This document shows, in pieces, positions 313 to 64,000 of a stretch of 64,000 nt of DNA; the first letter of the stretch is position 1, and each line of letters starts with the position of its first letter. The notes beneath the pieces are model-generated. The model was not told the origin of the DNA, made no database searches, and worked only from the letters and a program-made list of their open reading frames with translations. The position numbers and the translations under genes were made by a program. The DNA is from Eledone cirrhosa (taxonomy: Eukaryota), in NCBI GenBank assembly GCA_964016885.1, contig OZ024763.1:10230001-10294000 (forward strand). Direction: 5' to 3'.

Positions 313-765
313 TTACCGAGGTGTCAGGGGATGCCTGTGAGGATGCCAGGTTATATCAGTCCCTTAGCCTCGCCATCACCTCACCTTACCGAGGTGTCAG
401 GGCATGTCTATGAGGGTGCCAGGTTATTTCAGCCCCTTAGCCTCGCCATCACCCGTGGTAGTGCCGCCAGTGTATTGGCTTGTCTCAAAGTGTTTAGTTA
501 ACTCTTATGATGGGATATGCGGCTGATTGTCGCAATTGCTGGTGAGTTGATGGTCGTGTTTGTTTTTGTTTCCCCCTTTTTCTTTTTTTTCTCTCTTTTA
601 TGTGTTTATATTTGTATTTATCGAACTACATTATAGTTGTAATGTTCTTCTGAACGAATTGCGACCAAGTTATAATGTTATTTATTCATTTATATATATA
701 TATATATAAATGAAGTATTTCTGTTGGAAAGGTACAGGAAAAAATTTAATAAAAACACTATGTTA

Positions 766-823
766 TTCATTCTGATGACTGAAGACAGACACATCTGCCT
801 TCAAGAAACCACTGGTAAATGAA
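766..823 (+). ncRNA. Type I hammerhead ribozyme motif (family A small element, ~705-855, between (TA)n tracts)
   Basis: ttcatt-CTGATGA-[tgaagacaga/tctgccttca stem II]-GAAAC-cactg-GTA-aatgaa; stem I ttcatt/aatgaa; short quasi-palindromic stem III. Confidence 0.75.
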
Positions 824-853
824 ATAATTATCTTATGCTGTTTATTACATAAT

Positions 854-937
<84 letters not shown>

Positions 938-2689: not shown

Positions 2690-3690
2690 CTATCGGGAAA
2701 ATCTTCTTTAGGCTCATCGAAAAACACTTCCCACTACAACACCGCTACCACAACATAATCAACAAAAATACCATCAAACTCTCCTACAGCACCACAACTA
2801 ACTTTGCACAAAACATCGTCTCCTCTGACAACAAAAAACTCAACCCCTATGGAAGAAATATCCTAGATAGGAGTGGAGAGCCGACCAGGTGTAACTGTCC
2901 TGTTGGATCCATTTGCCCCCTCGACAACAGATGCAGAGATCGTAATGTAATCTACCAGTGCAATGTGAGGACGGACACCTCCAACAAAGCTTATATTGGA
3001 TTAACCGCTTGTGACTTCAAGACCCGGCTATATCAACACAGACACACTTTCCGAAACCCGGCCCGGTGTTACGCCACCACACTTTCGGGCCACCTCAAAG
3101 ATAACAATATTACCTATGATCTCACTTGGAGCTGACTGTCCAGAGCCAACTCTTACACGGGAGGACGCCGTCCGTGTAACTTATGCTCGGAGGAAACATT
3201 ACAAATGCTGTTTTCGACGGACCAACTCCTAAACAAGAAAGACGAACTAGTAACTGCATGCAAACACAGATTGTGTAGGACTTACCTTGCCCTCAAACCC
3301 TAAAATGACCCGGGGGGGGGGGGTAGACAAGAGCTGTAACACCCCACTTGCCGACTTTGTAATTGATAACCCCTGCTTGCAAAGGTAGACGTAAGATTTT
3401 CTTTTATATCTTTTTATCGTTTCCTCTATATTTCCTTCTTCCCCCCATCCCCATCCCTTTCTATTCCTTCCACCCCAGTTCTCCTTCTTTGTCGTCATCC
3501 TTTTCACTTTCTCGCGCACCCCGAAGCAGCCCTTCAATCCTTTGTAGCCTCAGTACCCCCACCCCATCCCCTATTCTATGATAGAATTGGCCGACTCCGC
3601 TTTTTATAGCAGATGTGATAGACCCCAGATACTTGCTTTCTTATCCGATGGCTGCCCCATTTCCGTGCTTTCTACATTTCTTAGTGGTAG
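2690..3690 (+). mobile_element. 5'-truncated Penelope-like retroelement: linker, GIY-YIG endonuclease (internal stop) and 3' UTR
   Basis: ORF 2683..3135 with NTIKLSYS, CNC...CPLDNRC, NVIYQC...YIGLT..FKTRLYQH; after a TGA it continues PCNLCSEE...LLNKKDELVTACKHR. Confidence 0.88.
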
Positions 3691-5066: not shown

Positions 5067-5113
<47 letters not shown>

Positions 5114-5139
5114 TTTAATAAACAACATAAGGCAATTAT

Positions 5140-5198
5140 TCCATTTACCAGTGGTTTCTTAAAAGCAAAAAAATTTTGCTTTCAATCATCAGAATGAA
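5140..5198 (-). ncRNA. Type I hammerhead ribozyme motif (left arm)
   Basis: Minus strand: ttcatt-CTGATGA-ttgaaagcaaaa...ttttgcttttaa-GAAAC-cactg-GTA-aatgga. Confidence 0.75.
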
Positions 5199-5214
5199 AA
5201 AATCCTGGTCTTTT

Positions 5215-5273
5215 TTCATTCTGATGATTGAAAGCAAAATTTTTTTGCTTTTAAGAAACCACTGGTAAATGAA
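5215..5273 (+). ncRNA. Type I hammerhead ribozyme motif (right arm)
   Basis: ttcatt-CTGATGA-ttgaaagcaaaa...ttttgcttttaa-GAAAC-cactg-GTA-aatgaa; stems I and II pair fully. Confidence 0.78.
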
Positions 5274-5367
5274 ATAATTGCCTTATGTTGTTTATTAAAT
5301 AACTATATAGCTCTGTTACCTACATAGAGCACTCTTTTTTCCTGGACTTTTCCGATGGAATTACTTC

Positions 5368-5412
<45 letters not shown>

Positions 5413-17954: not shown

Positions 17955-18338
17955 ATTCATCACCATTTTATGTCAGCTTTTCCCTGCTTGCAAGGGTTGG
18001 ATTATTGTCCTGTTGTGGGCAGTGTCCAGTCGGCTGACCTTGTCTTGCTCATACGGGAACTGATTCTGGCTTGATTTTTACAGCTGGATGCCCTTCCTAA
18101 CACCAACCTCATTTACAGTGAGTGCTGGGAGCTTTTTTGCCGTGGCGCCTACATGACCTCTTTGCAGTGGAAGGATAGGGACCCCAGTCCTATCATCTCA
18201 TTTCTACAGCTGAGTAAACTGGAGCAATGTGAAATAAAGTGTCTTGCTCAAGGAAACAACACATCACCCGGTCCGAGAATTGAACTCACAACCTTTTGAT
18301 TGCAAGCCCAATGTTCTAACCACTAAGCCATGTGCCTT
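17955..18338 (-). mobile_element. tRNA-derived SINE, family 2 (CORE-like centre, RTE-like tail)
   Basis: A box tggcttagtgg, B box gagttcaattc, tccttgagcaagacactt, aggaagggcatccagc tail. Confidence 0.88.
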
Positions 18339-19891: not shown

Positions 19892-20002
19892 CTCACCATT
19901 ACGACCACTACCATCATCATCATCATCATCATCATTAATATATATATATATATATTTCTATATATATATATAGTTATGTAATAAACAACATAAGGCAATT
20001 AT

Positions 20003-20060
20003 TCCATTTACCAGCGGTTTCTTAAAAGCAAAAGATTTTGCTTTCAATCCTCAGAATGAA
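20003..20060 (-). ncRNA. Type I hammerhead ribozyme motif (left arm)
   Basis: ttcatt-CTGAGGA-stem II-GAAAC-cgctg-GTA-aatgga on the minus strand. Confidence 0.73.
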
Positions 20061-20146
20061 AAAATCCTGATCTGTTTATTGAATTTGGATTTTAAAAAAC
20101 CTTGGTTTTTTTTAAAATCAAAATTCAATAAACAGACCAGGATTTT

Positions 20147-20204
20147 TTCATTCTGAGGATTGAAAGCAAAATCTTTTGCTTTTAAGAAACCGCTGGTAAA
20201 TGGA
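20147..20204 (+). ncRNA. Type I hammerhead ribozyme motif (right arm)
   Basis: ttcatt-CTGAGGA-ttgaaagcaaaa/ttttgcttttaa-GAAAC-cgctg-GTA-aatgga. Confidence 0.75.
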
Positions 20205-20297
20205 ATAATTGCCTTATGTTGTTTATTACATAACTATTAAGCTCTGTTACCTACATAGAGCACTCTTTTTTCCTGGACTTTTCCGACGGAATTACTT

Positions 20298-20343
<46 letters not shown>

Positions 20344-23034: not shown

Positions 23035-23416
23035 AGGCTTAGTGGTTAGAGCATTGGGCTTGCAATTGAAAGGTTGTGAGTTCAATTTTCAGACCGGGTG
23101 ATGTGTTGTTTCCTTGAGCAAGACACTTTATTTCACATTGCTCCAGTTTACTCATCTGTAGAAATGAGATGATAGGACTGGGGTCCCTATCATTCCACTG
23201 CAAAGTGGTCGTCGAGGTGCCATGAAAAAAAAGCACCCAGCACTCACTGTAAATGAGGTTGGTGTTAGGAAGGGCATCCAGCTGTAGAAATCAAGCCAGA
23301 ATCAGTTCCCGTATGAGCAAGACAAGGTCAGCCAACCGGACACTGCCCACAACAGGACAACCCGTCTAACCGATGCTAGCCTGGAAGAATGGACGTAAAA
23401 CGGTGATGATGATGAT
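23032..23416 (+). mobile_element. Family-2 SINE
   Basis: ggcttagtgg A box, gagttcaattt B box, CORE-like centre, RTE-like tail ending gatgatgat. Confidence 0.88.
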
Positions 23417-51610: not shown

Positions 51611-54600
51611 AGTCATTTATAGTCATTTATAGTCATTTATAGTGACGTTTTAGTCATTTATGATGACGTTTTAGCGATTTTACTCATTTATAATGCGTTT
51701 TAGCCATTTTAGTCATTTATGATGCCGTTTTAGCCATTTTAGCTATTTATGATGCCGTTTTAGCCATTTTAGTCATTTATAGTGACGTTTTAGTCATTTA
51801 TAATGACGTTTTAGTCATTTATGATGACGTTTTAGTCAATTATGATGACGTTTTTGTCATTTTACTCATTTATGATGCCGCTTTAGTCATTCATAATGTC
51901 ATTTTAGCCATTTTAGTCATTTATGATGACGTTTTAGTCATTTATGATGACGTTTCAGCCATTTTACTCATTTGTTATGCCTTTTTAGCCATTTATGATG
52001 ACGTTTTAGTCATTTCAGTCATTTATGGTGACGTTTTAGTCGTTTATGATGACGTTTTAGTAATTTATGATGACGTTTTGGCCATTTGACTCATTTATGA
52101 TGCCGTTTTAGTCATTCATAATTCTGTTTTAGCCATTTTAGTCATTTATGATGACGTTTGTAGGGATTTTAGGCATTTATGATGCCGTTTTAGCCATTTT
52201 ACCCATTTATGATGCCGTTTCAGCCATTTTACTCATTTATGGAGACGGTTTACTCATTTATGATGACGTTTTGGCCATTTTACTCATTTATGATGCCTTT
52301 TTAGCCATTTTATTCATTTATAATACAGTTTAGCCATTTCAGCCATTTATGATACCGTTTTAGCCATTTTATTCATTTATGGTGACGTTTTAGTCATACA
52401 TGATGAAGTTTTATTCATTTATGATAACGTTTTAGCCATTTTACTCATTTATGATGCCTTTTTAGACATTATAGTCATTTATGATGCCGTTTTAGCCATT
52501 TTAGTCATTTATGCTGCCGTTTTAGCCATTTATGATGACGTTTTAGTCATTTATGATGACGTTTTGGCTATTTAACTCATTTATGATGTCTTTTTAGCCA
52601 TCTTAGTCATTTATGATGCCGTTTTAGACATTTTAGTCATTTATGGTGACGTTTTAGTCGTTTATGAAGACGTTTTAGTCATTTATGATGACGTTTTAGC
52701 CATTTTACTTATTTATGATGCCTTCTTAGCCGTTTTAGTCATTTATAATGCCGTTTTAGCCATTTATTATGCTGTTTTAGCCATTTTAGTCATTTATGGT
52801 GACGTTTTAGTCATTTATTATGACGTTTTAGTCATTTATGATGCCGTTTTAGCCATTTTAACCATTTATGATGCGGTTTTAGCCATTTTATTCATTTATG
52901 GTGACGTTTTAGTCATTTATGATGACGTTTTAGTAATTTATGATAACGTTTTGGCCATTTTACACATTTATGATGCCGTTTTAGTCATTCATAATGCCGT
53001 TTTAGCCATTTTAGTCATTTATGATGACGTTTTAGTCATTTATGATGACGTTTCAGCCATTTTACTCATTTATTATGCCTTTTGAGCCATTTGTGATGAC
53101 GTTTTAGCCATTTTAGTGATTTATGATCACGTTTAGTCGTTTATGATGACGTTATAGCCATTTTAGTCACTTATGATGCCGTTTTAGCCATTTATGATGC
53201 CGTTTTAGCCATTTCAGTCATTTATGGTGACGTTTTAGTCGTTTATGATGACGTTTTAGTAATTTATGATGACGTTTTGGCCATTTGACTCATTTATGAT
53301 GCCGTTTTAGTCATTCATAATGCCGTTTTAGCCATTTTCATCATTTATGATGATGTTTTAGACATTTATGATGAAGTTTCAGCAATTTTACTCATTTATG
53401 ATGCCTTTTTAGCCATTTTAGCCATTTATGATGCCTTTTTAGCCATTTTAGTCATTCATGATGCCGTTTTAGCCATTTATGATGCCGTTTTGCCCATTTT
53501 AGTCAATTTTAGTAATTTATGGTGGCGTTTTATTCATTTCTGAAGACGTTTTAGTGATTTAGTATGACGTTTTAGCCATTTTACTCATTTATGATGCCTT
53601 TTTAGCCGTTTAATCATTTATGATGCCGTTTTCGCGATTTTAGCCATTTATGATGCCGTTTCAGTCATTAATGGAGACGTTTTACTCATTTATGATGACG
53701 TTTTAGCCATTTTAGTCATTTATGATGCCGTTTTAGGTCATTTATAATGCCGTTTTAGGCCATTTGACTCATTTATGATGCCGTTTTAGTCATTCATAAT
53801 GCCGTTTTAGCCATTTTCATCATTTATGCTGATGTTTTAGACATTTATGATGACGTTTTTGTCATTCATGAGGATGATTTAGTCATTTATGATGACGTCT
53901 TAGCCATTTTAGTCATTTATGATACAGTTTTAGCCATTGATGATGCCGTTGTAACCATTTATTATGACGTTTTAATCATTTATGATGACGTTTTAGCCAT
54001 TTTACTCATTTATGATGATATTTTAGTCATTAATGATGCCATTTTAGTCATTTATGTTAACGCTTTAGTCATTTATGATGACGTTTTAGTCATTTTAGTC
54101 ATTTATGGTGACGTTTTAGTCATTTATGTGACGTTTTAGCCATTTTACTCATTTATGATGCCATTTTAGCCATTTATGATGCCTTTTTAGCCATTTATGA
54201 TGATGTTTTAGTCATTTATGATGACGTTTTGGACATTGTACTCATTTATGATGCCGTTTGAGCCATTTATGATGACGTTTTAGCCATTTTAGTCATTTAT
54301 AGTGACGTTTTAGTCATTTATGATGACGTTTTAGTCATTCATAATGCCATTTTAGCCATTTTAGTCATTTATGATGACGTTTTAGCGATTTTACTCATTT
54401 ATAATGCCTTTTAGCCATTTTAGTCATTTATGATGCCGTTTTAGCCATTTTAGCTATTTATGATGCCGTTTTAGCCATTTTAGTCATTTATGGTGACGTT
54501 TTAGTCATTTATAATGACGTTTTAGTCATTTATGATGACGTTTTTGTCATTTTACTCATTTATGATGCCGCTTTAGTCATTCATAATGCCATTTTAGCCA

Positions 54601-57600
54601 TTTTAGTCATTTATGATGACGTTTTAGTCATTTATGATGACGTTTCAGCCATTTTACTCATTTGTTATGACTTTTTAGCCATTTATGATGACGTTTTAGT
54701 CATTTCAGTCATTTATGGTGGTGACGTTTTAGTCGTTTATGATGACGTTTTAGTAAGTTATGATGACGTTTTGGCCATTTGACTCATTTATGATGCCGTT
54801 TTAGTCATTCATAATGCTGTTTTAGCCATTTTAGTCATTTATGATGACGCTTGTAGTGATTTTAGTCATTTATGATGCCGTTTTAGCCATTTTACCCATT
54901 TATGATGCCGTTTCAGCCATTCTACTCATTTATGGAGACGCTTTACTAATTTATGATGACGTTTTGGCCATTTTACTCATTTATGATGCCTTTTTAGCCA
55001 TTTTATTCATTTATAATACCGTTTTAGCCATTTCGGCCATTTATGATACCGTTTTAGCCATTTTATTCATTTATGGTGACGTTTTAGTCATACATGATGA
55101 AGTTTTATTCATTTATGATAACGTTTTAGCCATTTTACTCATTTATGATGCCTTTTTAGCCATTATAGTCATTTATGATGCCGTTTTAGCCATTTTAGTC
55201 ATTTATGCTGCCGTTTTAGCCATTTATGATGACGTTTTAGTCATTTATGGTGACGTTTTGGTCATTTAACTCATTTATGATGTCTTTTTAGCCATCTTAG
55301 TCATTTATTATGCCGTTTTAGACATTTTAGTCATTTATGGTGACGTTTTAGTCGTTTATGAAGACGTTTTAGTCGTTTATGAAGACGTTTTAGTCATTTA
55401 TGATGACGTTTTAGTCATTTATGATGACGTTTTAGCCATTTTACTTATTTATGATGCCTTTTTAGCCGTTTTAGTCATTTATGATGCAGTTTTAGCCATT
55501 TATTATGCCGTTTTAGCCATTTTTGTCATTTATGGTGACGTTTTAGTCATTTATTATGACGTTTTAGTCATTTATGATGCCGTTTTAGCCATTTTAACCA
55601 TTTATGATGCGGTTTTAGCCACTTTATTCATTTATGGTAACGTTTTAGTCATTTATAATGACGTTTTAGTAATTTATGATCACGTTTTGGCCATTTTACA
55701 CATTTATGATGCCGTTTTAGTCATTCATAATGCTGTTTTAGCCATTTTAGTCATTTATGATGACGTTTGTAGTGATTTTAGTCATTTATGATGCCGTTTT
55801 AGCCATTTTACCCATTTATGATGCCGTTTCAGCCATTCTACTCATTTATGGAGACGCTTTACTAATTTATGATGACGTTTTGGCCATTTTACTCATTTAT
55901 GATGCCTTTTTAGCCATTTTATTCATTTATAATACCGTTTTAGCCATTTCAGCCATTTATGATACCGTTTTAGCCATTTTATTCATTTATGGTGACGTTT
56001 TAGTCATACATGATGAAGTTTTATTCATTTATGATAACGTTTTAGCCATTTTACTCATTTATGATGCCTTTTTAGCATTATAGTCATTTATGATGCCGTT
56101 TTAGCCATTTTAGTCATTTATGCTGCCGTTTTAGCCATTTATGATGACGTTTTAGTCATTTATGGGGACGTTTTTGCCATTTAACTCATTTATGATGTCT
56201 TTTTAGCCATCTTAGTCATTTATGATGCCGTTTTAGACATTTTAGTCATTTATGGTGACGTTTTAGTCGTTTATGAAGACGTTTTAGTCATTTATGATGA
56301 CGTTTTAGCCATTTTACTTATTTATGATGCCCTTTTAGCCATTTTAGTCATTTATGGTGACGTTTTAGTCATTTATGATCACGTTTTGGCCATTTTACAC
56401 ATTTATGATGCCGTTTTAGTCATTCATAATGCCGTTTTAGCCATTTTAGTCATTTATGATGACGTTTTAGTCATTTATGATGACGTTTCAGCCATTTTAC
56501 TCATTTGTTATGACTTTTTAGCCATTTATGATGACGTTTTAGTCATTTCAGTCATTTATGGTGGTGACGTTTTAGTCGTTTATGATGACGTTTTAGTAAT
56601 TTATGATGACGTTTTGGCCATTTGACTCATTTATGATGCCGTTTTAGTCATTCATAATGCTGTTTTAGCCATTTTAGTCATTTATGATGACGCTTGTAGT
56701 GATTTTAGTCATTTATGATGCCGTTTTAGCCATTTTACCCATTTATGATGCCGTTTCAGCCATTCTACTCATTTATGGAGACGCTTTACTAATTTATGAT
56801 GACGTTTTGGCCATTTTACTCATTTATGATGCCTTTTTAGCCATTTTATTCATTTATAATACCGTTTTAGCCATTTCGGCCATTTATGATACCGTTTTAG
56901 CCATTTTATTCATTTATGGTGACGTTTTAGTCATACATGATGAAGTTTTATTCATTTATGATAACGTTTTAGCCATTTTACTCATTTATGATGCCTTTTT
57001 AGCCATTATAGTCATTTATGATGCCGTTTTAGCCATTTTAGTCATTTATGCTGCCGTTTTAGCCTTTTATGATGACGTTTTAGTCATTTATGGTGACGTT
57101 TTGGTCATTTAACTCATTTATGTCTTTTTAGCCATCTTAGTCATTTATTATGCCGTTTTAGACATTTTAGTCATTTATGGTGACGTTGTAGTCGTTTATG
57201 AAGACGTTTTAGTCATTTATGATGACGTTTTAGTCATTTATGATGACGTTTTAGTCATTTATGATGACGTTTTAGCCATTTTACTTATTTATGATGCCTT
57301 TTTAGCCGTTTTAGTCATTTATGATGCAGTTTTAGCCATTTATTATGCCGTTTTAGCCATTTTTGTCATTTATGGTGACGTTTTAGTCATTTATTATGAC
57401 GTTTTAGTCATTTATGATGCCGTTTTAGCCATTTTAACCATTTATGATGCCGTTTCAGCCATTCTACTCATTTATGGAGACGCTTTACTAATTTATGATG
57501 ACGTTTTGGCCATTTTACTCATTTATGATGCCTTTTTAGCCATTTTATTCATTTATAATACCGTTTTAGCCATTTCGGCCATTTATGATACCGTTTTAGC

Positions 57601-60600
57601 CATTTTATTCATTTATGGTGACGTTTTAGTCATACATGATGAAGTTTTATTCATTTATGATAACGTTTTAGCCATTTTACTCATTTATGATGCCTTTTTA
57701 GCCATTATAGTCATTTATGATGCCGTTTTAGCCATTTTAGTCATTTATGCTGCCGTTTTAGCCTTTTATGATGACGTTTTAGTCATTTATGGTGACGTTT
57801 TGGTCATTTAACTCATTTATGATGTCTTTTTCGCCATCTTAGTCATTTATTATGCCGTTTTAGACATTTTAGTCATTTATGGTGACGTTGTAGTCGTTTA
57901 TGAAGACGTTTTAGTCATTTATGATGACGTTTTAGTCATTTATGATGACGTTTTAGTCATTTATGATGACGTTTTAGCCATTTTATTTATTTATGATGCC
58001 TTTTTAGCCGTTTTAGTCATTTATGATGCAGTTTTAGCCATTTATTATGCCGTTTAGAGCCATTTTTGTCATTTATGGTTACGTTTTAGTCATTTATTAT
58101 GACGTTTTAGTCATTTATGATGCCGTTTTAGCCATTTTAACCATTTATGATGCCGTTTCAGCCATTCTACTCATTTATGGAGACGCTTTACTAATTTATG
58201 ATGACGTTTTGGCCATTTTACTCATTTATGATGCCTTTTTAGCCATTTTATTCATTTATAATACCGTTTTAGCCATTTCGGCCATTTATGATACCGTTTT
58301 AGCCATTTTATTCATTTATGGTGACGTTTTAGTCATACATGATGAAGTTTTATTCATTTATGATAACGTTTTAGCCATTTTACTCATTTATGATGCCTTT
58401 TTAGCCATTATAGTCATTTATGATGCCGTTTTAGCCATTTTAGTCATTTATGCTGCCGTTTTAGCCATTTATGATGACGTTTTAGTCATTTATGGTGACG
58501 TTTTGGTCATTTAACTCATTTATGATGTCTTTTTAGCCATCTTAGTCATTTATTATGCCGTTTTAGACATTTTAGTCATTTATGGTGACGGTTTAGTCGT
58601 TTATGAAGACGTTTTAGTCGTTTATGAAGACGTTTTAGTCATTTATGATGACGTTTTAGTCATTTATGATGACGTTTTAGCCATTTTACTTATTTATGAT
58701 GCCTTTTTAGCCGTTTTAGTCATTTATGATGCAGTTTTAGCCATTTATTATGCCGTTTTAGCCATTTTTGTCATTTATGGTGACGTTTTAGTCATTTATT
58801 ATGACGTTTTAGTCATTTATGATGCCGTTTTAGCCATTTTAACCATTTATGATGCGGTTTTAGCCACTTTATTCATATATGGTAACGTTTTAGTCATTTA
58901 TAATGACGTTTTAGTAATTTATGATCACGTTTTGGCCATTTTACACATTTATGATGCCGTTTTAGTCATTCATAATGCTGTTTTAGCCATTTTAGTCATT
59001 TATGATGACGTTTGTAGTGATTTTAGTCATTTATGATGCCGTTTTAGCCATTTTACCCATTTATGATGCCGTTTCAGCCATTCTACTCATTTATGGAGAC
59101 GCTTTACTAATTTATGATGACGTTTTGGCCATTTTACTCATTTATGATGCCTTTTTAGCCATTTTATTCATTTATAATACCGTTTTAGCCATTTCGGCCA
59201 TTTATGATACCGTTTTAGCCATTTTATTCATTTATGGTGACGTTTTAGTCATACATGATGAAGTTTTATTCATTTATGATAACGTTTTAGCCATTTTACT
59301 CATTTATGATGCCTTTTTAGCCATTATAGTCATTTATGATGCCGTTTTAGCCATTTTAGTCATTTATGCTGCCGTTTTAGCCATTTATGATGACGTTTTA
59401 GTCATTTATGGTGACGTTTTGGTCATTTAACTCATTTATGATATCTTTTTAGCCATCTTAGTCATTTATTATGCCGTTTTAGACATTTTAGTCATTTATG
59501 GTGACGTTTTAGTCGTTTATGAAGACGTTTTAGTCATTTATGATGACGTTTTAGTCATTTATGATGACTTTTTAGCCATTTTACTTATTTATGATGCCCT
59601 TTTAGCCGTTTTAGTCATTTATGATGCCGTTTTAGCCATTTATTATGCCGTTTTAGCCATTTTAGTCATTTATGGTGACGTTTTAGTCATTTTTGATCAC
59701 GTTTTGGCCATTTCACACATTTATGATGCCGTTTTAGTCATTCATAATGCCGTTTTAGCCATTTTAGTCATTCATGATGACGTTTTAGTCATTTATGATG
59801 ACGTTTCAGCCATTTTACTCATTTATTATGCCTTTTTAGCCATTTGTGATGACGTGTTAGCCATTTTAGTGATTTATGATGACGTTTTAGTCGTTTATGA
59901 TGACGTTATAGCCATTTTAGTCATTTATGATGCCTCTTTAGCCATTTTAGTCACTTATGATGCCGTTTTAGCCATTTATGATGCCGTTTTAGCCATTTCA
60001 GTCATTTATGGTGACGTTTTAGTCGTTTATGATGACGTTTTAGTCATTCATAATGCCGTTTTAGCCACTTTCATCATTTATGATGATGTTTTAGACATTT
60101 ATTATGAAGTTTCAGCAATTTTACTCATTTATGATGCCTTTTTAGCCATTTTAGCCATTTATGATGCCTTTTTAGCCATTTTAGTCATTCATGATGCCGT
60201 TTTAGCCATTTATGATGCCGTTTTGCCCATTTAATCAATTTTAGTCATTTATGGTGGCGTTTTATTCATTTCTGAAGACGTTTTAGTAATTTAGTATGAC
60301 GTTTTAGCCATTTTACTCATTTATGATGCCTTTTTAGACGTTTTAGTCATTTATGATGCCGTTTTCACGATTTTAGCCACTTATGATGCCATTTCAGTCA
60401 TTAATGGAGACGTTTTACTCATTTATGATGACGTTTTAGCCATTTTAGTCATTTATGATGCCGTTTTAGGTCATTTATAATGCCGTTTTAGGCCATTTGA
60501 CTCATTTATAATGCCGTTTTAGTCATTCATAATGCCGTTTTAGCCATTTTCATCATTTATGATGATGTTTTAGACATTTATGATGAAGTTTTAGTCATTT

Positions 60601-63600
60601 ATGATGACGTTTTGGCCATTTAACTCATTTATGATGCCTTTTTAGCCATTATAATCTTTTATGATGCCGTTTTAGCCATTTTAGTCATTTATGCTGCCAT
60701 CTTAGTCATTTATGATGCCGTTTTAGACATTTTAGTCATTTATGGTGACGTTTTAGTCGTTTATGAAGACGTTTTAGTCATTTATGATGACGTTTTAGCC
60801 AATTTACTTATTTATGATGCCTTCTTAGCCGTTTTAGTCATTTATGATGCCGTTTTAGCCATTTATTATGCCGTTTTAGCCATTTTAGTCATTTATGGTG
60901 ACGTTTTAGTCATTTATTATGACGTTTTTAGTCATTTATGATAATGTTTTAGCCATTTTAACCATTTATGATGCGGTTTTAGCCATTTTATTCATTTATG
61001 GTGACGTTTTAGTTATTTATGATGACGTTTTAGTAATTTATGATCACGTTTTGGCCATTTTACACATTTATGATGCCGTTTTAGTCATTCATAATGTTGT
61101 TTTAGCCATTTTAGTCATTTATGATGACGTTTTAGTCATTTATGATGACGTTTCAGCCATTTTTACTCATTTATTATGCCTTTTTAGCCATTTGTGATGA
61201 CGTTTTAGCCATTTTAGTGATTTATGATGACGTTATAGCCATTTTTAGTCATTTATGATGACGTTATAGCCATTTTAGTCACTTATGATGCCGTTTTAGC
61301 CATTTCAGTCATTTATAGTGACGTTTTAGTCGTTTATGATGACGTTTTAGTAATTTATGATGACGTTTTGGGCATTTGACTCATTTATGATGCCGTTTTA
61401 GTCATTCATAATGCCGTTTTAGCCATTTTCATCATTTATGATGATGTTTTAGACATTTATGATGAAGTTTCAGCCATTTTATTCATTTATGATGCCTTTT
61501 TAGCCATTTTAGTCATTCATGATGCCGTTTTAGCCATTTATGATGCCGTTTTGCCCATTTCAGTCAATTTTAGTCATTTATGGTGACGTTTTATTCATTT
61601 CTGAAGACGTTTTAGTCATTTAGTATGACGTTTTAGCCATTTTACTCATTTATGATGCCTTTTCAGCCGTTTTAGTCATTCATGATGACGTTTTTCGCGA
61701 TTTTTAGCCATTTATGATGCCGTTTCAGTCATTAATGGAGACGTTTTTACTCATTTATGATGACGTTTTAGCCATTTTAGTCATTTATTATGCCGTTTTA
61801 GGTCATTTATAATGCCGTTTTAGGCCATTTGACTCATTTATAATGCCGTTTTAGTCATTCATAATGCAGTTTTAGCCATTTTCATCATTTATGATGATGT
61901 TTTAGACATTTATGATGAAGTTTTAGTCATTTATGATGACGTTTTGGCCATTTAACTCATTTATGATGCCTTTTTAGCATTATAATCTTTTATGATGCCG
62001 TTTTAGCCATTTTAGTCATTTATGCTGCCATCTTAGTCATTTATGATGCCGTTTTAGACATTTTAGTCATTTATGGTGACGTTTTAGTCGTTTATGAAGA
62101 CGTTTTAGTCATTTATGATGACGTTTTAGCCAATTTACTTATTTATGATGCCTTCTTAGCCGTTTTAGTCATTTATGATGCCGTTTTAGCCATTTATTAT
62201 GCCGTTTTAGCCATTTTAGTCATTTATGGTGACGTTTTAGTCATTTATTATGACGTTTTAGTCATTTATGATAATGTTTTTAGCCATTTTAACCATTTAT
62301 GATGCGGTTTTAGCCATTTTATTCATTTATGGTGACGTTTTAGTTATTTATGATGACGTTTTAGTAATTTATGATCACGTTTTGGCCATTTTACACATTT
62401 ATGATGCCGTTTTAGTCATTCATAATGTCGTTTTAGCCATTTTAGTCATTTATGATGACGTTTTAGTCATTTATGATGACGTTTCAGCCATTTTACTCAT
62501 TTATTATGCCTTTTTAGCCATTTGTGATGACGTTTTAGCCATTTTAGTGATTTATGATGACGTTATAGCCATTTTAGTCATTTATGATGACGTTATAGCC
62601 ATTTTAGTCACTTATGATGCCGATTTAGCCATTTCAGTCATTTATAGTGACGTTTTAGTCGTTTATGATGACGTTTTAGTAATTTATGATGGACGTTTTG
62701 GGCATTTGACTCATTTATGATGCCGTTTTAGTCATTCATAATGCCGTTTTAGCCATTTTCATCATTTATGATGATGTTTTAGACATTTATGATGAAGTTT
62801 CAGCCATTTTATTCATTTATGATGCCTTTTTAGCCATTTTAGCCATTTATGATGCCTTTTTTAGCCATTTTAGTCATTCATGATGCCGTTTTAGCCATTT
62901 ATGATGCCGTTTTGCCCATTTCAGTCAATTTTAGTCATTTATGGTGACGTTTTATTCATTTCTGAAGACGTTTTAGTCATTTAGTATGACGTTTTAGCCA
63001 TTTTACTCATTTATGATGCCTTTTCAGCCGTTTTAGTCATTCATGATGCCGTTTTCGCGATTTTAGCCATTTATGATGCCGTTTCAGTCATTAATGGAGA
63101 CGTTTTACTCATTTATGATGACGTTTTAGCCATTTTAGTCATTTATTATGCCGTTTTAGGTCATTTATAATGCCGTTTTAGGCCATTTGACTCATTTATG
63201 ATGCCGTTTTAGTCATTCATAATGCCGTTTTAGCCATCTTCATCATTTATGATGATGTTTTAGACATTTATGATGACGTTTTAGCCATTTTAGTCATTTA
63301 TGTTTGACGTTTTAGTCATTCATGATGAAGTTTATTCATTTATGATAATGTTTTAGCCATTTTACTCATTTATGATGCCTTTTAAGCCATTTTAGTCATT
63401 TATGATGCCGTTTTAGCCATTTTACCCATTTATGATGCCGTTTTTAGCTATTTTAGTCAATTATGATACCGTTTTAGACATTTTAGCCATATATGATGCC
63501 GTTTTAGCTATTTTAGTCATTTATGGTGACGTTTCAGCCATTTTACTCATTTATGATGCCTTTTAAGCCATTTATGATGACGTTTTAGTCATTCATAATG

Positions 63601-64000
63601 CCGTTTTAAAACATTTTAGTCAATTTATGATGACGTTTTAGTCATTCATAATGCCGTTTTAAACATTTTAGTCATTTATGATGACGTTTTAGTCATTTAT
63701 GATGCCTTTTTAGCCATTTTAGTCATTTATAATGCCGTTTTAGTAAAATATACTCATTTATGGTGAGATTTTAGTCATTTATGATGACGTTTTAGCCATT
63801 TTTAGCCATTTATGATGCCGTTTTAGCTGTTTTACTCATTTATGATGCCGTTTTAGCTATTTTAGCCATTTATGATGCCGTTTTAGCCGTTTTACTTATT
63901 TATGATGCCTTTTTAGCCATTTATGGTGAGGTTTTAGTCATTTATGATGACGTTTTAGCCATTTTTACTCATTTATGATGCCTTTTTAGCCATTTTAGTC
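51611..64000. repeat. Large satellite built from 21-bp (catttatgatgacgttttagt) and 9-bp (cattttagc) modules, with ~0.9-kb and ~1.35-kb higher-order duplications; runs off the window
   Basis: Direct reading; diagnostic variants (e.g. catacatgatgaag) recur, and near-identical pseudo-ORFs start at 54841, 55757, 56684 and 59002. Confidence 0.96.

What the first reader, a model, noticed from the sequence alone, without database searches (positions are those of the whole stretch)
19971..20300. Second palindromic copy shows the inverted arm is made per insertion
Seen: same family and tail as 5103-5370, but the turnaround point differs (arms are ~30 bp longer). Copy-specific variants (CUGAGGA core, cgctg stem III, aaaatctttt loop) occur in BOTH arms here, while both arms at 5 kb have CUGAUGA/cactg. 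The arms therefore resemble each other more than they resemble the other locus. Inference: the palindrome arises by fold-back/self-primed synthesis during each integration (or by arm-to-arm conversion) and is not a fixed MITE TIR structure.
Basis: partly seen in the sequence, partly recalled or inferred. Interest (0 to 1): 0.75.

Follow-up and report, generated by a model that had tools for sequence, protein, structure and literature searches.

The report
Mirror-ended Penelope-like retroelement stub
This palindrome is a short leftover of a common jumping gene (a Penelope-like retroelement); its mirror layout is already described, but the copies across the genome suggest it likely forms when both ends of cut host DNA copy one RNA from two fixed start points, rather than when one copy folds back on itself.

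Summary
The palindrome is real, and its centre lies about 30 bp further in than at 5.1 kb. It is not a MITE. It is the 5'-truncated end of an autonomous Penelope-like retroelement with the Hydra-clade motifs (711-aa RT + GIY-YIG ORF, minimal hammerhead, 62-nt tail, (TA)n target; over 1,000 copies). 'Made per insertion' holds: 40 different junctions in 43 position-sampled palindromes, and the two arms almost always share a subfamily (0 of 78 discordant at one site, 38 expected). Most 'copy-specific' variants are subfamily variants, and arms do not cluster by locus (3 of 82). Fold-back cannot explain all copies: the tail-less arm is the longer in 17 of 43, 8 of 43 have almost no arm overlap, and 42 of 43 pair a tailed with a tail-less end. 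Most likely both target ends prime cDNA on one RNA at two fixed sites. Fold-back stays possible for the symmetric copies (18 of 43), this one included. The structure and the self-priming idea are published (PMC3846280, PMC8557442). The scan reached a similar two-ended reading before, on other DNA of this genome.

The parts
19938..19969 (.). (TA)n target microsatellite, left flank
   Evidence: 88 of 99 palindromic copies have (TA)3+ on both flanks
19970..20100 (-). Tail-less arm: inverted copy of the pseudo-LTR, from the tail boundary (63 nt before the element end) to about 192 nt before the end
   Evidence: the same tail-less end joined to (TA)n occurs 1,480 times exactly
20002..20061 (-). Minimal type I hammerhead motif, left-arm copy
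   Evidence: mirror of 20146-20205; read from the sequence
20101..20104 (.). Junction bases not in the element (C-TT-G): one extra C on each cDNA strand plus 2 filler bases; A/T runs on either side differ in length
   Evidence: searches compared with non-inverted copies
20105..20237 (+). Tailed arm: pseudo-LTR part shared with the left arm
20146..20205 (+). Minimal type I hammerhead motif: stem I, CUGAGGA (20153-20159), stem II (20160-20185), GAAA, very short palindromic stem III, GUA with predicted cut after 20198
   Evidence: read from the sequence; stems I and II form; no Rfam hammerhead match; cleavage not tested
20238..20299 (+). 62-nt 'tail', present on one arm only; in tandem copies it runs on into the 5' UTR of the ORF
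20300..20341 (.). (CA)3 then (TA)n, right flank
   Evidence: (CA)3+ follows the tail in 18 of 43 copies and lies outside the tail-less end in 0 of 43
5107..5368 (+). Sister copy of another subfamily; tail-less arm (5107 to about 5214, minus strand) reaches 10-14 nt further than the tailed arm, joined over TTTT microhomology
709..860 (-). Older copy (about 79% identity): tail-only arm 709-744 on the minus strand, joined to a tail-less hammerhead arm 763-860 on the plus strand; the arms share no sequence

Best explanation
The palindrome is the 5'-truncated end of an autonomous Penelope-like retroelement, and its two arms were likely made during one insertion as two separate cDNAs, each primed by one end of the cut (TA)n target on the same RNA. 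Shown: family identity, two fixed ends (tail end and tail boundary, 62 nt apart), variable junctions, same-subfamily arms, either arm the longer, one tailed plus one tail-less end per insertion. Inferred: the endonuclease cuts both strands; one 3' end primes at the tail boundary and the other at the tail end; the tail-primed enzyme trails the other, so it stops on reaching it (tail-only arms), stops short (tail-less arm longer), or displaces it and runs off the same RNA 5' end (symmetric copies such as this one); host end-joining then joins the two cDNA ends with microhomology or filler bases. Weakly inferred: the hot spot about 192 nt from the end is a capped transcript start in the pseudo-LTR.
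For: Element: ORFs of 713-715 codons linked to this end, Hydra motifs. Position-sampled short palindromes (43): 18 symmetric, 17 tail-less arm longer, 8 tailed arm longer; 12 versus 3 at 15 nt or more (p = 0.035; 17 versus 8 alone p = 0.11); 8 tail-only. Extremes: L229 tailed arm 2.9 kb with a 155-bp partner; L224 tailed arm about 100 bp with a 5.8-kb partner. One tailed plus one tail-less end in 42 of 43 (flank list) and in 13 of 13 tail-less ends whose partner lay within 1.5 kb (13 of 30 examined). Tail-less ends also occur with no inverted partner (L127, L134, L281). One source: discordant arms 0 of 78, 1 of 89, 0 of 58 at three diagnostic sites against 38, 42, 29 expected. Arm lengths are coupled: 18 symmetric against 5.5 by permutation, 7 of 21 against 1.7 outside the hot spot. 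Symmetric and asymmetric copies are equally old (1.53% versus 1.48% arm divergence). One 15-bp target duplication at a non-microsatellite site (L095). In vitro, an anole PLE cuts and extends both target strands and starts at two RNA sites that bound the tail (PMC11167929, main text read).
Against: Symmetric copies (18 of 43, this locus included) fit fold-back equally well on sequence alone; 13 of 18 have 2 or fewer unpaired bases at the centre, which both models can give. Long perfect palindromes are unstable (general knowledge), so asymmetry made right after insertion cannot be excluded by the age test. The rare stem III G is in both arms at 2 loci of different haplotype, and no long same-haplotype source copy with it was found; that fits copying between arms, though two other stubs share both haplotype and variant. 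The extra-C signal depends on the count: 23 of 28 by motif, 11 of 43 by alignment, where A-run length confounds it; some fillers look templated from nearby sequence. Only 43 of 96 position-sampled loci were resolved; 30 ran beyond the unique region and 23 had no resolved partner. In 8 of 43 the tailed arm is the longer, which needs it to overtake. One RNA versus two RNAs from one source locus is not distinguished. No RNA data.
Confidence: 0.62

Rival explanations
1. Fold-back or self-priming: one cDNA folds at its 3' end and copies itself; the endonuclease trims one arm at the tail boundary; asymmetric copies come from later central deletions. 2013.
For: Excess of symmetric junctions, also outside the hot spot; near-perfect centres in 23 of 44 symmetric copies; rare variant in both arms here; published interpretation (PMC3846280, passage; PMC8557442, passage on the tail).
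Against: Tail-less arm longer in 17 of 43 and tail-only arms in 8 of 43, 7 of them ending within 10 nt of the tail boundary; kb-scale asymmetry in copies whose arms are still identical (L262, L259, L271); no age difference between symmetric and asymmetric copies; tail-less ends without a partner; 29 of 44 symmetric junctions carry filler bases rather than a templated hairpin.
Confidence: 0.2
2. Mixed route: two-ended priming makes the asymmetric copies, while fold-back or hairpin closure makes most symmetric ones, this locus included.
For: The junctions fall into a symmetric peak and a broad asymmetric class.
Against: Both classes have the same ends, target, filler frequency (29 of 44 versus 29 of 55) and age; the extra C at the hot spot also appears in asymmetric copies (L097, L108, L172, L177).
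Confidence: 0.12
3. Arms are homogenised after insertion by conversion between them.
For: 8 near-private variants shared by both arms in 82 loci; the stem III G here.
Against: 175 single-arm differences persist in the same loci, 2 of them here; shared-private variants are no rarer in tandem pairs (7 in 2,576 columns) than in inverted pairs (24 in 21,254).
Confidence: 0.04
4. A MITE with fixed terminal inverted repeats, moved by a DNA transposase.
For: Palindromic look and TA target; three unrelated-flank copies share one junction.
Against: 40 junctions in 43; asymmetric tail; continuity with an RT-endonuclease ORF; the recurring junction sits on a self-complementary TTTTAAAA in different haplotypes.
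Confidence: 0.02

Closest known systems
Hydra clade of endonuclease-bearing Penelope-like elements (Craig et al. 2021, PMC8557442; passages read)
   Same: C-terminal GIY-YIG, RWK, DKT, CxCX5C linker, no CCHH, CxxC and CxH motifs, hammerhead, (TA)n target, partial tandems, inverted 5'-truncated copy, tail at one end.
   Different: Unit about 4.3 kb (paper: generally under 3 kb) because of a microsatellite-rich 3' spacer between two hammerhead copies; tail 62 nt (paper: 30-40 bp for PLEs). No RT tree was built.
Adineta vaga Penelope elements with inverted pLTRs (Arkhipova et al. 2013, PMC3846280; passages read)
   Same: Head-to-head inverted pLTR, palindromes at the junction, optional tail, target duplications, spacers before the 3' pLTR.
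   Different: That paper reads the palindromes as self-priming, from a few copies; the copy statistics here favour two-ended priming.
Poseidon element of Anolis carolinensis in vitro (Frangieh et al. 2024, PMC11167929; parts 1-2 of 4 read)
   Same: Two RT start sites bounding the tail; both target strands cut and extended; AT-rich target; predicted dimer.
   Different: The main text I read does not link this to inverted copies, and finds no difference in start site between strands. Different clade. Supplements not read.
LINE-1 twin priming (Ostertag and Kazazian 2001; original not held; review passage PMC9148063)
   Same: Both target overhangs prime on one RNA and give a 5' inversion; the tail-only class here has the same layout.
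   Different: In L1 the second primer anneals somewhere internal; here the second site is fixed and the two cDNAs usually overlap, giving a palindrome.

Membership tests
EN+ Penelope-like elements | Single ORF with RT and GIY-YIG endonuclease | tested here: met
   711 aa from the first Met, YRDD at 346, VVY...YVG at 575; Atlas neighbours carry GIY-YIG, RVT_1, HTH_animal. Pfam scan gave no significant family.
EN+ Penelope-like elements | Partial tandems forming pseudo-LTRs | tested here: met
   L252, L253, L255, L267, L268, L270
EN+ Penelope-like elements | Inverted 5'-truncated copy and a tail at one end | tested here: met
EN+ Penelope-like elements | Minimal type I hammerhead in the pLTR with short palindromic stem III | tested here: met
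   Motif read from the sequence; stems I and II fold; matches the description in PMC6765202 (passage). Rfam gave no hammerhead match.
EN+ Penelope-like elements | Ribozyme cleavage and RT/EN activity | not testable with these tools
   needs bench assays
Hydra clade | RWK and DKT motifs; N-terminal GxKF/Y not conserved | tested here: met
   RWK at 37, DKT at 114; the only GxKF is at 504 (features)
Hydra clade | CxCX5C linker, no CCHH, CxxC and CxH in the endonuclease | tested here: met
Hydra clade | Insertion into (TA)n | tested here: met
   88 of 99
Hydra clade | Placement in the RT phylogeny | not tested
   no reference alignment in hand
Neptune clade | CX2-5CxxC linker and CCHH | tested here: not met
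MITE | Fixed terminal inverted repeats and fixed internal structure | tested here: not met
Non-LTR retrozyme | Non-coding tandem monomers | tested here: not met
   the end belongs to a coding element

The most novel reading that the evidence does not exclude
Penelope-like elements integrate by programmed twin priming: one ribonucleoprotein uses both ends of the break at two fixed sites on one RNA, the second enzyme displaces the first cDNA, and this single step explains the tail, the inverted pseudo-LTR and the palindromes. The tail-end enzyme may also stutter on a CA in the template before elongating, telomerase-style, leaving (CA)n on the tail side only.
Probability: 0.4. Interest if true: 0.7.

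Novelty: new member of a known kind. Interest (0 to 1): 0.42.

Why it matters
The locus itself is an ordinary stub of a known class. The family matters because how Penelope-like elements make their inverted ends and tail is still called undefined in the literature read (PMC8557442). This young, high-copy family with intact ORFs gives countable junction classes that favour two-ended priming over the published self-priming reading, and it yields sharp predictions for an existing in vitro system. It also warns that such stubs will be mis-annotated as MITEs or miRNA hairpins (one search gave only sub-threshold miRNA matches).

Tried and rejected
Rfam: hairpin-driven miRNA matches below threshold, no hammerhead. 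Pfam: no significant family for the ORF. Sequencing runs: no RNA holder listed, so transcript starts and ribozyme cuts were not examined. My first clade guess, Neptune, was rejected on motifs. Local alignment over-ran junctions and was replaced by a joint alignment. Arm clustering by locus failed. Stem II loop sites -130 and -129 show no arm concordance (16 of 82 versus 17.8; 18 of 82 versus 21.0); they lie in a variable homopolymer. Target duplications cannot be read in (TA)n; one clear and one possible case in 99. Ends near the predicted ribozyme cut (L157, L203, L254) are too few to use. Centre loop size does not separate the models. Paper searches for a twin-priming account of PLE inversions found none; the library lacks most subscription papers, including the PLE reviews of 2005 and 2006, and supplements were not read.

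Full report
Observation. The window holds head-to-head palindromes at 5107-5368 and 19970-20299, both in (TA)n and both with a 62-nt tail on one arm only. Centres are at 5206.5 and 20103.5, so the arms at 20 kb are about 30 bp longer. The named variants are in both arms as stated. A third, older copy at 709-860 has a tail-only arm joined to a tail-less arm with no shared sequence.

What it is. The window lies in a 3.0-Gb genome. A 46-nt piece of the tail occurs exactly 1,057 times, the tail-less end joined to (TA)n 1,480 times. Longer copies continue upstream through a microsatellite-rich spacer and a second, diverged hammerhead into an ORF. Open frames of 713-715 codons occur at many places. 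L252 has the textbook layout: inverted pseudo-LTR, pseudo-LTR with tail, ORF, 3' region, pseudo-LTR with tail. The protein has an RT core, a GIY-YIG motif, and every sequence feature that Craig et al. list for the Hydra clade. Pfam found nothing significant; Atlas neighbours carry RT and GIY-YIG families. The pseudo-LTR has a minimal type I hammerhead motif read by eye, with stems I and II folding and no Rfam match. The finding is thus the last 195 nt of a Penelope-like element plus an inverted partial copy.

Sample. I took the first 100 of the 1,057 tail matches, all on contig C1 and chosen by position only. They gave 99 loci; after dropping one second view of the same insertion, one duplicate and one paralogue, 96 remained. 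Of these 43 were resolved as short head-to-head pairs, 30 had a tailed arm running past the unique region, and 23 had no resolved partner; a few of the 23 have short or damaged partners by eye. Loci found by similarity and by the tail-less end (first 30 of 1,480) were added for variant and junction counts, giving 99 palindromes; these added sets are biased to longer arms.

Made per insertion. The 43 have 40 distinct junctions. Arm pairs are nearly always of one subfamily: 0 of 78, 1 of 89 and 0 of 58 discordant at three sites, against 38, 42 and 29 expected. But of 223 non-majority variants shared by both arms, 200 are common in the family and 8 near-private; the partner arm is strictly the closest sequence in 3 of 82 loci, tied in 22, beaten in 57. 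So arms cluster by subfamily, not by locus. The stem III G is rare (16 of 3,597). It is in both arms here and at one locus of another haplotype, in one arm only at three others, and in two more stubs of this haplotype. A minor source copy or copying between arms would both fit. Long inverted pairs show 24 shared-private variants in 21,254 columns and tandem pairs 7 in 2,576, so unsampled sources suffice and conversion is not needed.

Fold-back or two primers. A tail-primed cDNA that folds back cannot give a longer tail-less arm, and a tail-less cDNA cannot supply the tail. Among the 43, the tail-less arm is longer in 17, the tailed arm in 8, and 18 are symmetric within 3 nt; 8 have a tailed arm that is little more than the tail. 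L224 and L229 show the two extremes at kb scale. Ends pair as tailed plus tail-less in 42 of 43 and in 13 of 13 seen from the other side. Symmetric and asymmetric copies are equally diverged. In vitro, an anole PLE cuts and extends both strands and starts at two RNA sites bounding the tail. Together this favours two primers on one RNA, akin to L1 twin priming but with a fixed second site.

The symmetric class. Symmetry is far above chance (18 versus 5.5; 7 of 21 versus 1.7 outside the hot spot). Under two-ended priming it means both cDNAs ran off the same RNA end. A hot spot lies about 192 nt from the tail end, where inverted partners of upstream pseudo-LTRs also turn (L252, L199), and PLE transcripts are reported to start in the upstream pseudo-LTR. 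An extra C follows the last templated base in 23 of 28 informative ends by motif count, as a cap would give; an alignment-based count gives 11 of 43, so this is a lead only. This locus is of that class: both arms end at the hot spot with a mirrored extra C. Fold-back explains such copies too, and centre loop sizes do not decide. Immediate post-insertion revision of perfect palindromes cannot be excluded.

Side result. (CA)3+ follows the tail in 18 of 43 copies and never lies outside the tail-less end, in both main haplotypes and with several prefixes. It may come from stuttering at the start of synthesis or from read-through RNA of source copies.

Comparison. The structure is known: inverted 5'-truncated copies and tails (PMC8557442), junction palindromes read as self-priming (PMC3846280). 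My searches found no paper that explains them by two-ended priming, within a library lacking most subscription papers. Earlier notes of this scan on retrozymes and a PLE stub in the same genome reach a similar reading; I saw them after forming mine and did not check them.

Verdict. Real, per-insertion, a new member of a known kind. Interest 0.42, for the mechanistic test it offers and not for the locus.

Noticed in passing
window 2692-3267: Fragment of a distantly related Penelope-like ORF (linker and endonuclease, 32% identity over 203 aa).
   Followed up: no
window 51648-63922: About 12-kb AT-skewed satellite of 30/51-nt units.
   Followed up: no
window 18005-18329 and 23036-23360: Two 94%-identical copies of an unrelated 325-bp repeat in opposite orientation, each in microsatellite flanks; probably a SINE-like family.
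   Followed up: partly
L229:2610-3900; L148:1200-1535: The element carries a second, diverged hammerhead 1.3-1.8 kb before its end. L148 ends at such a first copy, which suggests the microsatellite-rich spacer and the present end were added later.
   Followed up: partly
L229:3850-3880: A pyrimidine tract ending in CAG about 225 nt before the tail end looks like a splice acceptor; the spacer may be an intron in tandem transcripts.
   Followed up: no
L256:3389-5978: Both arms of this long palindrome lack the same 3' region, jumping from the ORF to the pseudo-LTR: a shared structural variant.
   Followed up: partly
L174; L091: L174 has tails on both arms; L091 has two tails facing each other. Both depart from the usual pairing.
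   Followed up: no
L105, L024, L049, L086 junctions: Filler bases at several junctions copy nearby element sequence, as in polymerase-theta end joining (recalled label).
   Followed up: partly
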